Positions 8,864 to 25,977 of a DNA stretch of 64,000 nt are shown here, one piece after another; within the stretch, counting starts at the first letter, position 1; the number at the start of each line of letters is the position of its first letter. The notes under the pieces were generated by a model. It saw only the letters and a list, made by a program, of their open reading frames with translations. It had not been told where the DNA came from and searched no databases. The DNA is from the human T2T-CHM13v2.0 reference genome, Homo sapiens: NCBI RefSeq assembly GCF_009914755.1, contig NC_060938.1; one strand, written 5' to 3'. Both the position numbers and the translations under genes were made by a program.

Positions 8864-9079
8864 TTATTTTACAATTTGGAAGTCTGAGTAATCCAACTTC
8901 AAGATGACTTTTTCATTGTTGAAGTTTGCTTTGTCGATGTGTGATTTAGGACTTCCTCTTGTTTCAAGCCATTCCTGCATATGACGCACCTTGGAGATGG
9001 GACCTTGCAATTGTCCTTGCACTGTGCCCCGGTCAGTGTTCTGGACCCAGCCTACCAATCCCAGCTTTTTACCCTCAGC
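8864..9079 (-). CDS. ACYP1: ACYP1 last exon, coding part (aa 29-99 plus stop), acylphosphatase-1
   Basis: Acceptor ...ccccttag|GCT at 9080/9079; encodes [22 protein letters not shown]...DFQIVK* including the catalytic WVQN motif; TAA at 8866-8864. Confidence 0.97.
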
Positions 9080-17105: not shown

Positions 17106-17184
17106 CTGCATAACTGGTAGCAAAGCTAACTGGAACACAGCTCTTGCTGTGAGTTTCAGCAATTCTGTTTTCAACAGTCATTTC
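17106..17184 (-). CDS. ACYP1: ACYP1 79-nt alternative cassette exon (frameshifting; 55-aa isoform)
   Basis: Acceptor aaatag|GAA at 17185/17184 and donor CAG|GTAAG at 17106/17105. Reads EMTVENRIAETHSKSCVPVSFATSYA, then G|GC TGA in the last exon. Matches my recollection of the short ACYP1 splice variant. Confidence 0.85.
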
Positions 17185-18888: not shown

Positions 18889-18972
18889 CTGAGTATGCTT
18901 ACGGAAAAACACCCCTTGCACCTTCCCAAAAATTTCATAATCCACTGATATCAGGGTGTTTCCTTCTGCCAT
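18889..18972 (-). CDS. ACYP1: ACYP1 exon 2 coding part (aa 1-28)
   Basis: MAEGNTLISVDYEIFGKVQGVFFRKHTQ contains the acylphosphatase GxVQGVxFR motif. Exon spans 18889-18980; acceptor AG at 18982-18981; donor CAG|GTATGT. Missed by the ORF track because it is short. Confidence 0.97.
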
Positions 18973-19149
18973 GCTCAAACCTGTCAGAAACCAGGAAAGC
19001 AGAAGAGTGAAGGGCTATTATTCCAGGACCCGCAAGCCTGAGTCAGAAAGGGCCACACCCACCCCTGTCCATCCTTAACCATTGCGACCTCTCCCCGACT
19101 TCAAGGTCCTGGAAATGGAAACGTGAGTGGATGTGATAAGGTGTGTGTG

Positions 19150-19630
19150 AAGGAAGAACCAGACGCCGGGAGAGGGAGCTTCGGATCGCAGCTGCCCGCT
19201 GAAGCCTCTTCTGGGGAAATAACCTGAGGACCGATGACCTCCTTACATCCATGCCCGGTCCCGCTCCCTCACTACCAGAATTCCCTGCTACTAACTCCCA
19301 GAATCCCCTGCTACTAACATTTTAGGGCTAATCGACCTGAGAAGCACACCCTGGGGGCCCCTGGCGGCTCACCCTCCTTGTCTTCCCCACCGGCTGCCAG
19401 GATCACTCCGGGACCACCACGCCAACGGCTCACCAAGGCGCGCAAACCTCCGCGCCCGGAAGTTTAGTGTGTAGCTGCTCCTTCGCTGTCGCTCATGCCC
19501 ATCACCTCCAGCTGACCAATCAGAGACGGCGCCTCGGCCCGGGCCCGCCCAGAAGGTGGGATTTCAGGACGCGGTTGTCCGGCAACCCAAAAGCTTTGGG
19601 TTGGGGATCTGTCCAGGAACTCGGCTGGGC
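19150..19630. promoter_or_regulatory. CpG-rich ACYP1 proximal promoter
   Basis: ETS site CCGGAAGT 19456-19463, CCAAT box 19516-19520, GC box about 19541-19550, X-box-like GTTGTCCGGCAAC 19574-19586. Confidence 0.75.
19434..19500 (-). other. ACYP1: ACYP1 proximal non-coding exon 1
   Basis: Donor TTG|GTGAGC at 19434/19433 in a CpG-rich region; the 5' end is approximate. Confidence 0.7.
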
Positions 19631-19884: not shown

Positions 19885-23843
<3,959 letters not shown>

Positions 23844-23992: not shown

Positions 23993-24613
23993 CCGGTAAA
24001 TTCTGCTGAGGGAAGCTGTGGGAGTTGATAATCGGGACCCTGAGTGGAGTGGGAAACGTCTGGAGCTGCATATACGGAGAGGCGGTAGAGTCAACTAGGG
24101 ATGAAAACGAGGAATTAAAAAAAAAAAAAAGACTGATCTGGAGGGTCCACCAAGGAATTTCCTTGTAACGGGTAACAGCTGTAATATGACATGTTGAAGT
24201 ATTAACACTGATGACTGCTGTCTACATTATTTTCCATGTGCATGAATTGAGTAGTTACAGGGAAAAAGCGAACTGCCTGTTCCAAACGGCTTACACAGAT
24301 GAACTGAAGCGAAGAAGAAAAATGAACTTTCTTTTGATGTCAACAAGATAGAGTATCATTTACTGTTGAAGCCAGGTTATACTGATTATTTTCGATCTGG
24401 TAGTTAACTTTATCATCATTACATTTGGCTGAGTCATTCCTGGGCCCTAAGTAGAGACGGCTAGAATTACCACGTGAGTAAAACATTATAATATCAAAAT
24501 AATTAGATTGGCCACAAAAACTACCACGGAAAGATACTGCGTAGCAAAAACGTTGGCAGCAAGTTCCAAAGCCTTGGCGAGGACAAGCAAGGAGCGCGCG
24601 CGTGCAGCCATAC

Positions 24614-24695
24614 CTGGGGCCCGCCCAGCGCAGCCGAGCGCGCGGAGAAAGGCCAGCAGCAGCCCCGCTCCCGCCAGGCGGGCGGACGCCGGCAT
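24614..24695 (-). CDS. ACYP1: Putative ACYP1 upstream alternative first exon, coding part (N-terminal extension; 129-aa isoform)
   Basis: ATG at 24695 with A at -3; donor CAG|GTATGG at 24614/24613. 82 nt plus the 8-nt exon-2 UTR make 30 codons in frame with the ACYP1 ATG. Confidence 0.7.
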
Positions 24696-25049
24696 CCTGC
24701 GGCGGAAGCACGCGGAGGCACAGCCAGGGCCTCCGCCCTTTGCCAGACAAGGGCACACCCCAAGGTCTGGGAGCGTCGTTCTCAGAAAAGTACAAGTTCT
24801 TCTTTGAAGGAGCTCCAGAAAAGCCTCTCCCGCCCCTCCCCGGCTCCCCAAGGGCAGGGCTGGACCGAGCTGCAGAGTTGGCCGGACACTGACTGGGTCA
24901 AGTGACCTTGGGCTGACCGCACCCCCACCCCCGGTCGCCCCGGGTCGCTGGTGCACTGCGCCTGCGCGCGTCTCCCCGAGGAGTTCGCGGCGAGGGGCGG
25001 AGCTTGGCGCGCCAGTGCCTCGGTTTCCAGGCACCGGGAATAACAGAAG

Positions 25050-25153
25050 CCAGCTGAGAGCGCCTGCGCGGCTGTCGGTTGATGGGGAGGTCAGGTCTGG
25101 GAAACTAGGCCCTGGGGTTTTCCCTGAGCAGGAGCGGTGCCCGAGGGCCTCAG
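25050..25153 (+). other. ZC2HC1C: ZC2HC1C non-coding exon 1 (5' end approximate)
   Basis: Donor CAG|GTACGC at 25153/25154 in the CpG island, upstream of the acceptor cccgtag| at 25958. Confidence 0.6.
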
Positions 25154-25977
25154 GTACGCAGAAGGGCGGGGAGACATGGGATCAGCACCTCCACCTCCTA
25201 AGGGACCGAAGGGCAGGAGAGCGAGAGGACTTGTCCCCAGAGGTGGAGTCCGAAGTGGGGGCGCCCCAGTTGACCCTTCGGGACAAAACGTGACTTCAGC
25301 CTTAAGGATCTAAAACCGGCCGCGGTCAGGTCAGGTGGCCCTCAACGCTCAGGTTACAAAACTTTTACAGTCTGCGCCACGGGGACTCCTGGGATGAGGG
25401 TTTGACAGCCAGGCACCTGCTCCAGGCCCTAGCAGCTTTTGTGCTCTTTGGAATCAAGCACGGTTCCAGCAGGAGGGAAGCCCTGAGAGTTCTTTGTGCC
25501 AGTCACTACCTCTGGGCCACAGCTTTCTCACCTGTAAAATGGTGAGGCTGGACTCTGCGGGAACCCTTCAGTTTACAGGGGAAGAAACGGGGGCCAGCAA
25601 GGGAGAAGTCGCTTGTCCTGTTACAGGCCTAGAACCTGACTTTCTAGTCAGGTGCTCTTTCCACCTACTATAGAGTATACTGTGCGTGGCAGAGGCTGGT
25701 GCTGGAGGAAAGGAAAGCTAGGTGGCAGGAACACCTGTAGCACCTTCGTTTTTCTACCCTCAGGGCCTAACACAGTGTCTTGTGCATAATCACTCACCAA
25801 ATGGTTTTTGAAGGGAAGCTTTGGCAGGTCCAGCAACACTGTCCCCAGAAAAGTTTAAGGGAATGTGGGCAGGGCAAATGTAGAAATAGTTTGCTTTAGC
25901 AGCCGAGAGTGAACCTCAGACAAACTCTTCCCGTGTATCTGGTTTAAATCTCCCGTAGGCGTCAGTCCAGGCCCTGA

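What the first reader, a model, noticed from the sequence alone, without database searches (positions are those of the whole stretch)
24614..24695. Upstream ACYP1 exon in the ZC2HC1C CpG island adds a leader resembling a signal or transit peptide
Seen: ATG 24695 (A at -3) to donor CAG|GTATGG, spliced to the ACYP1 exon-2 acceptor (18980), reads MPASARLAGAGLLLAFLRALGCAGRAPGLS-MAEGNT..., in frame, 129 aa. The leader has a basic n-region, a hydrophobic core (LAGAGLLLAFL), small residues C-A-G before a plausible cleavage site, three Arg and no acidic residues. Established: ACYP1 is regarded as a cytosolic enzyme. Inference: promoter choice could redirect acylphosphatase to the secretory pathway or mitochondria, co-regulated with ZC2HC1C from the shared island. 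I recall a longer annotated ACYP1 isoform, but I know of no function for it.
Basis: partly seen in the sequence, partly recalled or inferred. Interest (0 to 1): 0.7.

Follow-up and report, generated by a model that had tools for sequence, protein, structure and literature searches.

The report
Ancient hydrophobic leader on ACYP1 isoform
An already annotated alternative first exon of human ACYP1 puts a 30-residue hydrophobic leader on this 'cytosolic' enzyme; placental mammals keep its reading frame and hydrophobic core, which hints at an unstudied membrane or secretory form, but the human start codon is not the ancestral one and nothing yet shows the protein is made.

Summary
ATG 24695 (minus strand) is the only ATG in the annotated ACYP1 alternative first exon 24614-24894. 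Its donor at 24614 joins exon 2 (18980) in frame and gives 129 aa, 30 extra plus the usual 99. The exon was already in the hub's RefSeq table, so it is not new.

New here: a profile of the extension found 39 protein clusters (216 member sequences), 35 of them named placental gene models. These read the same exon as a 55-59-residue extension that starts 27 codons upstream of the human ATG. At that older start, human has ACG. At the human ATG, most mammals have Ile. The frame is therefore old, and the human start is new or recurrent.

A hydrophobic core is kept apolar: 1 of 16 variant states is polar, against 45% expected (P=0.001). Overall identity is only slightly above a neutral simulation, and human versus macaque looks neutral. 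Human also carries an Arg that cuts the apolar run from about 18 residues to 11.

HeLa start-site profiling shows no initiation there. I could run no targeting predictor.

Best reading: an ER-directed signal or anchor segment on a minor, promoter-specific isoform. Compartment and function are unproven.

The parts
24614..24894 (-). Alternative first exon of ACYP1 (annotated in RefSeq as an exon of other transcripts)
   Evidence: Hub annotation table. Sequence. 281 nt with a single ATG.
24693..24695 (-). Human start codon of the long isoform, with A at -3 and C at +4. The same column is Ile in 17, Met in 4 and Val in 2 of 23 aligned rows.
24614..24695 (-). Coding part of the exon: 27 codons plus the first base of the junction codon
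24645..24677 (-). Hydrophobic core LAGAGLLLAFL (residues 7-17 of the human leader). It is the most constrained part of the extension across placentals.
24642..24644 (-). CGC = Arg18, found only in the human row. That column is Ser 16, Gly 4, Thr 1, Arg 1 and gap 1 of 23. It shortens the apolar run from about 18 residues to 11.
24774..24776 (-). ACG (Thr) at the column where 20 of 23 rows have the start Met (MLPD...). This is the position of the older placental start codon.
24612..24613 (-). GT of the donor CAG|GTATGG
18889..18980 (-). ACYP1 exon 2. The acceptor AG is at 18981-18982. Eight bases precede the canonical ATG (18970-18972) and are read as part of the leader.
   Evidence: Hub table.
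8864..9079 (-). Coding part of the last ACYP1 exon, shared by both isoforms
   Evidence: Hub table.
19373..19443 (-). Canonical, non-coding first exon of ACYP1, the alternative to the upstream exon. It holds the CUG (19398-19400) used in HeLa.
   Evidence: Hub table.
24500..25400 (.). CpG island and head-to-head promoter region shared with ZC2HC1C (starts at 25032-25045 on the + strand)
   Evidence: Hub table.

Best explanation
Positions 24614-24695 are the coding end of an annotated alternative first exon of ACYP1. The exon is transcribed from the CpG-island promoter that faces ZC2HC1C. A ribosome scanning a transcript from this promoter meets ATG 24695 first, because it is the only ATG in the exon. 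The product is the normal 99-aa acylphosphatase behind a 30-residue leader.

The leader is the shortened human version of an old placental extension of 55-59 residues. Its constant feature is an uncharged hydrophobic segment of about 18 residues, for example LAGVGLLIAFLSTLGC in the hyaena model, with Arg on both sides. In human the older start is ACG, a newer ATG sits directly before the segment, and Arg18 trims the segment to 11 residues. The human leader therefore has the n-h-c layout of a cleavable signal peptide.

Most likely mechanism: the hydrophobic segment is recognised co-translationally and takes this minor isoform to the ER membrane. In man it would be a cleaved signal peptide. In most other mammals it would be a signal peptide with a long n-region or a type II anchor. 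Promoter choice would thus give a membrane or luminal acylphosphatase alongside the cytosolic one.

Shown: the exon, the splice, the frame, conservation of the frame, and selection for apolarity in the core. Inferred: that the protein is made, that it is targeted, and to which compartment.
For: Anatomy.

Age of the frame: one search found 2 hits among 3612 candidates, one search found 5 among 38, and one search found 39 clusters (216 member sequences) among 5866. Of the 39, 35 are named models from 31 placental species and 4 are unnamed records. The named species cover primates, rodents, lagomorphs, carnivores, cetartiodactyls, perissodactyls, a bat, a pangolin, afrotherians and an armadillo; the assignment to orders is my own knowledge. 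In the 23-row alignment all indels are in frame. In 5 named models (Elephantulus, Orycteropus, Dasypus, Rhinolophus, Peromyscus leucopus) the record name carries no isoform suffix.

Protein-level filter: in the 11 core columns only 1 of 16 distinct variant states is polar, charged or Pro, against 45% of possible one-base non-synonymous changes (binomial P=0.001). In the 16-column extended core the count is 5 of 27 against 42% (P=0.009). In the N-terminal half it is 23 of 73 against 36% expected, so there is no filter there.

Start turnover with the core kept. Human and the Castor model (a record that begins without Met) lack Met at the older start column and have Met just before the core. The pig models start at a different ATG. 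An unnamed record that holds the same peptide as the pig model has its N-half in the +1 frame of the human DNA (9/15 identical, E 1e-5), yet it re-enters the shared frame before the core.

Core properties: the apolar run is at least 18 residues in 16 of 22 non-human rows and 14-17 in the other 6. In the four non-human rows I scanned (Macaca, Hyaena, Vicugna, Elephas), the 21-residue Eisenberg <H> is 0.61-0.73 with muH 0.04-0.09, so the segment is uniformly hydrophobic and not amphipathic (scales recalled). Chance control: 0.2-0.9%.
Against: No trained predictor (SignalP, TargetP, DeepTMHMM) could be run, and the rules I used are crude and were written post hoc.

Overall conservation is weak. 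Mean pairwise identity of the extension is 0.61, against 0.92 for the enzyme (231 pairs). Between superorders it is 0.54-0.65. A substitution-only neutral simulation gives 0.57-0.42 at d=0.3-0.5 (the distances are assumed from memory).

Human versus macaque is 48/57, inside the neutral range at d=0.065 (mean 0.88, 0.79-0.96). Homo and Macaca differ from the non-primate consensus at 17 and 20 places, against 6-16 in 14 of the other 20 rows. This suggests constraint may be relaxed in catarrhines.

In-frame similarity of about the same level runs on upstream of the older ATG into the annotated 5'UTR (human versus two unnamed records: 51/83 and 44/75 identical, one codon-sized gap). Part of the conservation is therefore probably DNA-level, from the promoter or UTR.

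Ascertainment: a species with a broken frame would not yield a long model, so the open frames found are a biased sample.

Human Arg18 breaks the segment: the summed Hessa score for the best 19-residue window is +4.3 in human against -1.0 to +4.2 elsewhere (scale recalled). The mature enzyme has no Cys in 23 of 23 rows and no N-x-S/T sequon in 20 of 23, so it carries no mark of a secretory-pathway protein.

HeLa harringtonine profiling lists 2 ACYP1 start sites and neither is this one. No site at chr14:75069xxx appears in the stored part of Table S1. The file was cut when stored and ZC2HC1C is absent from it too, so the promoter may simply be silent in HeLa.

No ape, mouse, rat or non-placental sequence was recovered.
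Confidence: 0.4

Rival explanations
1. By-product with no function in human. The island promoter fires in both directions and the upstream exon is spliced to ACYP1 at a low level. The leader is just what GC-rich DNA encodes. Conservation reflects promoter or 5'UTR DNA, and in the human lineage the extension is decaying (older ATG lost, Arg in the core).
For: Human versus macaque is 48/57, which is neutral-like. The extension is only slightly more conserved than the neutral simulation. Similar in-frame similarity extends into the 5'UTR. There is no initiation at this ATG in HeLa. The human start is not the ancestral one, and Arg18 is unique among 23 rows. None of the seven literature searches that included the term ACYP1 found work on the isoform.
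Against: The core avoids polar residues far more than mutation alone would give (1 of 16, P=0.001), while the N-half does not. Promoter constraint does not explain this difference. Where Met is missing at the older start column (human, Castor) or the older start is out of frame (the pig-like unnamed record), another in-frame ATG sits ahead of the core. The long form is modelled in 31 named placental species. A signal-like layout is rare in GC-rich frames (0.2-0.9%).
Confidence: 0.33
2. Mitochondrial presequence. The Arg-rich, acid-free human leader is imported through TOM/TIM and cut by MPP, giving a mitochondrial acylphosphatase. In other mammals the N-half acts as the presequence and the hydrophobic segment as a stop-transfer sorting signal.
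For: The human leader has 3 Arg, 0 Asp/Glu, 8 Ala and 7 Leu in 30 residues. With Arg18 the 18-residue hydrophobic moment rises to 0.42 (0.68 over 11 residues). The net charge before the core is positive in 21 of 22 non-human rows.
Against: The orthologues carry acidic residues in the N-half, for example D4 and E22 in the non-primate consensus. In the four non-human rows scanned the core is uniformly hydrophobic (muH 0.04-0.09 at the window of highest <H>), and the highest 18-residue moment anywhere in those extensions is 0.27-0.33. The run LLLAFL is typical of SRP substrates rather than presequences (own knowledge). A search for ACYP1 with MitoCarta found 0 papers, which is weak evidence. No predictor was run.
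Confidence: 0.15
3. Translational control rather than targeting. The upstream-exon mRNA mainly serves to lower or change the output of normal ACYP1. It has a long GC-rich 5'UTR and its first AUG lies 30 codons ahead of the canonical one. The extended protein would be unstable or quickly degraded.
For: The 5'UTR is 199 nt and the exon is 69% GC. In HeLa the canonical transcript also starts at an upstream CUG, so N-terminal heterogeneity is tolerated. An exposed hydrophobic N-terminus on a cytosolic protein is a usual quality-control target (own knowledge).
Against: This does not explain why the frame and the apolar core are kept, nor why an in-frame start is re-created when the older one is lost.
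Confidence: 0.07

Closest known systems
Annotated long ACYP1 isoform (RefSeq transcript using exon 24614-24894; predicted 'acylphosphatase-1 isoform X1/X2...' models in other mammals)
   Same: Same exon, same splice to exon 2, same frame. The hub table lists the exon. Searches give the orthologous models.
   Different: The annotation gives no function. Non-human models start 27 codons further upstream and have a longer apolar segment. I could not see the human record itself, so its accession and length are not verified here.
Alternative first exons that add or remove an ER signal peptide (plasma versus cytoplasmic gelsolin, secreted versus intracellular IL-1 receptor antagonist; recalled, not checked here)
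   Same: One gene, two promoters or first exons, the same mature protein, and an N-terminal hydrophobic leader present only in one form.
   Different: In those cases secretion is shown by experiment and the mature protein has an extracellular role. ACYP1 has no known luminal or extracellular substrate, and the mature domain has no Cys and mostly no glycosylation sequon.
Dual cytosolic/mitochondrial isoforms from alternative starts or first exons (for example KARS1, abstract seen in the listing; GARS1 and TRNT1 in PMC12718117, passages seen)
   Same: An N-terminal extension decides the compartment, and the shorter form is cytosolic.
   Different: Those extensions are amphipathic and acid-poor, and their start codons are conserved. 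Here the core is uniformly hydrophobic in the four non-human rows scanned, the orthologues have acidic residues, and the start codon has moved.
Type II signal-anchor proteins
   Same: A single uncharged segment of about 18-22 residues lies about 30 residues from the N-terminus, with Arg-Arg directly before it in most rows.
   Different: Hydrophobicity is marginal (summed Hessa score -1.0 to +4.2; recalled scale, no position terms). Human has only 11 apolar residues. Topology is untested.

Membership tests
ACYP1 alternative first exon / long isoform | Exon boundaries match an annotated ACYP1 exon, with GT-AG splicing to exon 2 | tested here: met
   The hub table lists 24614-24894. The donor GT is at 24613-24612 and the acceptor AG at 18982-18981.
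ACYP1 alternative first exon / long isoform | The upstream ATG is in frame with the canonical ORF, with no stop between | tested here: met
   129-aa product whose last 99 residues are the canonical protein.
Acylphosphatase family (Pfam PF00708) | Acylphosphatase domain present behind the extension | tested here: met
   PF00708 at E 1.3e-21 (Macaca model, residues 68-154) and 1.7e-21 (Halichoerus model). The human mature part equals the 99-aa sequence listed for ACYP1 in PMC12718117, supplementary file 3. The human spliced protein itself was not scanned.
Cleavable ER signal peptide | Basic n-region at the N-terminus without acidic residues | tested here: met
   Human: Arg6 lies before the core and there is no Asp or Glu in 30 residues. 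In other mammals the core starts at residue 28-37, so the n-region is unusually long and holds Asp/Glu.
Cleavable ER signal peptide | Uninterrupted hydrophobic h-region of about 7-15 residues | tested here: met
   Human: 11 residues, mean Kyte-Doolittle hydropathy 2.40 (scale recalled).
Cleavable ER signal peptide | c-region with small uncharged residues at -3 and -1 | tested here: inconclusive
   The simple rule gives several candidates (after residues 21, 22, 23 and 24 in human; after 48 and 49 in the hyaena model). No weight matrix or trained model was available.
Cleavable ER signal peptide | Positive call by a trained predictor; cleavage and translocation in cells | not testable with these tools
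   No SignalP, TargetP or DeepLoc here. DeepLoc2 values in PMC12718117, file 3, cover only the annotated and the CUG-extended forms, and both are called cytoplasm.
Mitochondrial presequence | Net positive and free of acidic residues | tested here: inconclusive
   Met in human (+3, no Asp/Glu). Not met in most orthologues, where the consensus N-half has Asp and Glu.
Mitochondrial presequence | Amphipathic helix | tested here: inconclusive
   Human 18-residue muH is 0.42. In the four non-human rows scanned it is 0.27-0.33 at best, and 0.04-0.09 at the window of highest <H> (Eisenberg scale recalled, no reference set run).
Signal-anchor / transmembrane segment | Apolar run of about 18 or more residues flanked by basic residues | tested here: not met
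   Human: 11 residues, because of Arg18. It is met in 16 of 22 non-human rows, and the other 6 have 14-17 residues.

The most novel reading that the evidence does not exclude
ACYP1 has an ancient, placental-wide second form that is not cytosolic. It would be an acylphosphatase carried to the ER or secretory membrane system by a conserved hydrophobic N-terminal segment, encoded in the first exon of the promoter shared with ZC2HC1C. The start codon has been replaced at least three times (human, beaver, pig) while the segment was kept. In human this turnover turned a long anchor-like extension into a short classical signal peptide. The human ACG at the older start (A at -3) might still give some of the long form. 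This would open a new line on the unresolved physiological role of acylphosphatases.
Probability: 0.3. Interest if true: 0.7.

Novelty: new member of a known kind. Interest (0 to 1): 0.45.

Why it matters
Acylphosphatases are small, much-studied enzymes, and the glioma ACYP2 paper describes ACYP as a small cytosolic enzyme (PMC7285537, Background passage). By my recollection their role in the cell is still unclear. If a conserved isoform is sent to membranes or into the secretory pathway, the enzyme could meet substrates or partners that work on the 99-aa form has never considered. Promoter choice at a bidirectional island would then switch its compartment. The locus is also a clear small example of start-codon turnover with retention of the downstream targeting-like segment. 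If the rival reading is right, the finding is an ordinary minor transcript and needs no further attention. A handful of standard experiments would separate the two cases.

Tried and rejected
1. AlphaFold2 of the Macaca long form with a 21-row alignment gave mean pLDDT 49.3 and pTM 0.37. Residues 1-67 were below 50 with no secondary structure, and even the enzyme domain was poorly modelled. It is uninformative and I did not use it.

2. A Pfam scan of two long orthologues and the pig fusion model found nothing in the extension. The only hits were PF00708 and a sub-threshold DUF2871 match inside the enzyme part.

3. Literature. None of the seven searches that included the term ACYP1 gave a paper on the long isoform, its leader or its localisation. 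The one paper on ACYP1 splice forms (Degl'Innocenti et al. 2004, IUBMB Life 56:29) is not held. I saw only a citing sentence, that both 'CT and CTsv' products induce apoptosis in HeLa (PMC9322919), and cannot say which variant CTsv is. An ALS blood RNA-seq paper lists an ACYP1 isoform switch 'with consequence' but gives no detail in the main text (PMC10946588).

4. HeLa initiation-site data list no site at the upstream ATG. I treat this as weak evidence, because ZC2HC1C is absent from the same table and the file was cut when stored.

No mammalian DNA collection is on hand, so I could make no codon-level (dN/dS, PhyloCSF) test.

7. I rejected identity alone as proof of coding constraint, because the same level of in-frame similarity continues into the 5'UTR.

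Full report
**1. The observation**

On the minus strand the sequence reads ...GCAGG ATG CCG GCG..., with the ATG at 24695-24693, A at -3 and C at +4. The exon ends CAG|GTATGG at 24614. Exon 2 begins at 18980 behind a pyrimidine tract and AG.

A script that joined the annotated exons from the window file shows four things:
- The 281-nt exon 24614-24894 holds a single ATG, this one.
- The 82 coding bases join exon 2 in frame, giving 129 aa. That is 27 residues coded in the exon, a junction Gly, Leu-Ser from exon 2, then the canonical 99 aa.
- The canonical transcript gives 99 aa.
- The frame stays open upstream through the whole exon.

Without splicing, the ATG opens a 69-aa ORF (24486-24695). 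The region is a CpG island (GC 0.645, CpG o/e 0.74 over 24500-25400, against 0.14 at 22000-23000). The exon's 5' end is 137 bp from the nearest ZC2HC1C start in the hub's table. The exon is already listed in that table as an ACYP1 exon of other transcripts.

**2. Is the signal-like look more than GC-rich chance?**

The leader has 3 Arg, no acidic residue, 8 Ala, 7 Leu and 5 Gly. It has an 11-residue apolar run, LAGAGLLLAFL, and small residues at -3/-1 at several places after it.

I wrote a crude rule after seeing the leader, so it is biased in its favour. It is met by 18 of 2095 GC-rich stop-free 30-codon windows of this window (3 of 1759 outside the exon). It is also met by 1153 of 131521 stop-free sequences generated from the exon's own first-order composition. 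The rate is 0.2-0.9%, so such a leader is uncommon but not vanishingly rare.

**3. Related sequences**

The protein database includes nr. I ran three searches:
- The unspliced ORF, restricted to residues 1-40: 2 hits among 3612 candidates.
- The squirrel-monkey model, residues 1-57: 5 hits among 38.
- A five-row profile of the extension: 39 clusters standing for 216 member sequences, among 5866 candidates.

Thirty-five clusters are named gene models from 31 placental species. By my own knowledge of the taxa, these cover primates, rodents, lagomorphs, carnivores, cetartiodactyls, perissodactyls, a bat, a pangolin, three afrotherians and an armadillo. Four clusters are unnamed records. No ape, mouse, rat, marsupial or bird sequence came back. 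The search depends on shared words, so this absence is weak evidence.

**4. What the alignment shows**

I aligned 22 models that have a complete enzyme domain with the human conceptual reading from 24776 (23 rows). All read the exon as a 55-59-residue extension that starts MLPD... or a close variant.

- At the older start column, 20 of 23 rows have Met and human has Thr (ACG, 24776-24774). Diceros has its Met one column earlier. The Castor record has no Met there.
- At the human ATG column there are 17 Ile, 4 Met (Homo, Dasypus, Castor, Ochotona) and 2 Val. Saimiri has Thr.
- Human Arg18 stands where 16 rows have Ser, 4 Gly and 1 Thr.

So the frame is old, but the human start is not the ancestral start. 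The companion expectation, 'conservation of the ATG', fails.

**5. How constrained is the extension?**

For 231 pairs (22 rows; the mis-spliced Peromyscus leucopus model was dropped), mean identity is 0.61 in the extension and 0.92 in the enzyme. Between superorders the extension scores 0.54-0.65.

A substitution-only simulation from the human DNA gives 0.57, 0.49 and 0.42 at d = 0.3, 0.4 and 0.5, and 0.88 (0.79-0.96) at d = 0.065. The distances are my assumptions. CpG effects and indels are not modelled.

The extension is thus only somewhat slower than neutral. Human versus macaque (48/57) is indistinguishable from neutral. The two primate rows lie far from the non-primate consensus (17 and 20 differences).

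Similar in-frame similarity continues upstream of the older ATG into the annotated 5'UTR. Human against two unnamed records gives 51/83 and 44/75 identical, with one codon-sized gap. Identity alone therefore cannot separate coding constraint from promoter or UTR constraint. Gene models also exist only where the frame is open, which is an ascertainment bias.

**6. Evidence that is specific to protein**

In the 11 columns of the hydrophobic core there are 16 distinct variant states, and only one (Arg in Manis) is polar, charged or Pro. From the human codons, 45% of one-base non-synonymous changes would be (binomial P = 0.001).

Over 16 columns, through the conserved Cys, the count is 5 of 27 against 42% (P = 0.009). 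In the N-terminal half it is 23 of 73 against 36% expected, so there is no filter there. The states are not independent events and the expectation uses human codons, so the P values are rough. The contrast between the two halves is still what selection for an apolar segment predicts, and what DNA-level constraint does not predict.

Start-codon turnover points the same way. The pig models start at a different ATG. An unnamed record with the same peptide as the pig model has its N-half in the +1 frame of the human DNA (9/15 identical, E 1e-5) and re-enters the shared frame before the core. Human and the Castor record lack Met at the older start column and have Met right before the core.

**7. 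What kind of segment is it?**

In 16 of 22 non-human rows the apolar run is at least 18 residues, and in the other 6 it is 14-17. In the four non-human rows I scanned (Macaca, Hyaena, Vicugna, Elephas), the best 21-residue window has Eisenberg <H> of 0.61-0.73 with a hydrophobic moment of 0.04-0.09. That is uniformly hydrophobic, not amphipathic.

The summed Hessa score of the best 19-residue window is -1.0 to +4.2, which is marginal for a membrane span. All three scales are recalled from memory. Arg-Arg precedes the run in most rows and a single Arg or Gln follows it.

In human the run is 11 residues, <H> falls to 0.41 and the moment rises to 0.32-0.42. This fits a signal-peptide h-region, or less well a presequence.

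The mature enzyme has no Cys in 23 of 23 rows and no N-x-S/T sequon in 20 of 23. Nothing marks it as a secretory protein. No trained predictor was available.

**8. Is it used?**

I had no RNA-seq or CAGE data. HeLa harringtonine profiling (Table S1 of PMC11014515, read through its supplements, file cut when stored) has two ACYP1 rows. One is the annotated AUG. The other is a CUG at hg38 chr14:75063981, which maps to window 19400-19398 in the canonical first exon.

No row has a position starting 75069, and ZC2HC1C is absent from the table. The follow-up paper (PMC12718117, supplementary file 3) gives DeepLoc2 'cytoplasm' for both forms. In HeLa the upstream start is therefore not seen, but the shared promoter may simply be off there.

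**9. Explanation**

Best supported (about 0.4): an ER-directed hydrophobic leader on a minor, promoter-specific isoform. It is old in placentals and remodelled in the human lineage.

Rivals:
- A by-product that is functionless in human (0.33).
- A mitochondrial presequence (0.15).
- A translational-control or unstable-product reading (0.07).

The anatomy (exon, splice, frame) is certain. That the frame is old is very likely. Selection on the core is likely. Translation, targeting and compartment are inferred.

**10. Comparison with what is known**

The nearest known thing is the annotated long isoform itself. The nearest mechanisms are alternative first exons that add a signal peptide (gelsolin and IL1RN, both recalled) or a mitochondrial leader (KARS1, GARS1 and TRNT1).

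None of the seven library searches that included the term ACYP1 found a study of this isoform. The 2004 paper on ACYP1 splice forms is not held.

I file the finding as a new member of a known kind. It is of moderate interest, because acylphosphatase physiology is, by my recollection, unsettled and the tests are simple.

Noticed in passing
window 19398-19400 (-), canonical ACYP1 exon 1: A CUG start in strong context gives a 12-residue in-frame extension of normal ACYP1. It is listed in HeLa initiation-site profiling with higher initiation efficiency (log2 12.97) than the annotated AUG (9.19). It is not conserved (PhyloP -0.45).
   Followed up: partly
P0029 (Elephas), P0038 and P0039 (Sus); human counterpart would be 24614-24894 spliced towards MLH3 exons below 6934: Predicted read-through models join the ACYP1 leader exon directly, and in frame, to MLH3 coding exons. 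The MutL_C and HATPase_c domains lie behind the same hydrophobic leader. I did not check whether human makes such transcripts.
   Followed up: no
window 24777-24863 (-), annotated 5'UTR of the upstream exon: In-frame similarity to two unnamed mammal records continues about 28 codons upstream of the older start, with one codon-sized gap. In-frame near-cognate codons lie at 24875, 24857, 24851, 24818, 24785, 24779 and 24776. This could be promoter or UTR constraint, or a still longer non-AUG reading.
   Followed up: partly
window 24486-24695 (-): Without splicing, the same ATG opens a 69-aa ORF that runs into the intron. The Chlorocebus X2 model reads part of the corresponding intron as coding, using a later donor.
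   Followed up: no
window 18973-18980 (-), start of exon 2: Among mammals the few bases between the acceptor and the canonical ATG differ by a two-codon indel (LS versus LSLN, VGMN or LSMS). This keeps the long form in frame and in some species adds a second in-frame Met just before the canonical one.
   Followed up: no
window 17106-17184 (-): Including this annotated alternative exon shifts the frame after exon 2. It gives truncated products of 55 aa (canonical start) or 85 aa (upstream start) that lack most of the enzyme domain. It may or may not be the 'CTsv' form of the 2004 paper, which I could not read.
   Followed up: no
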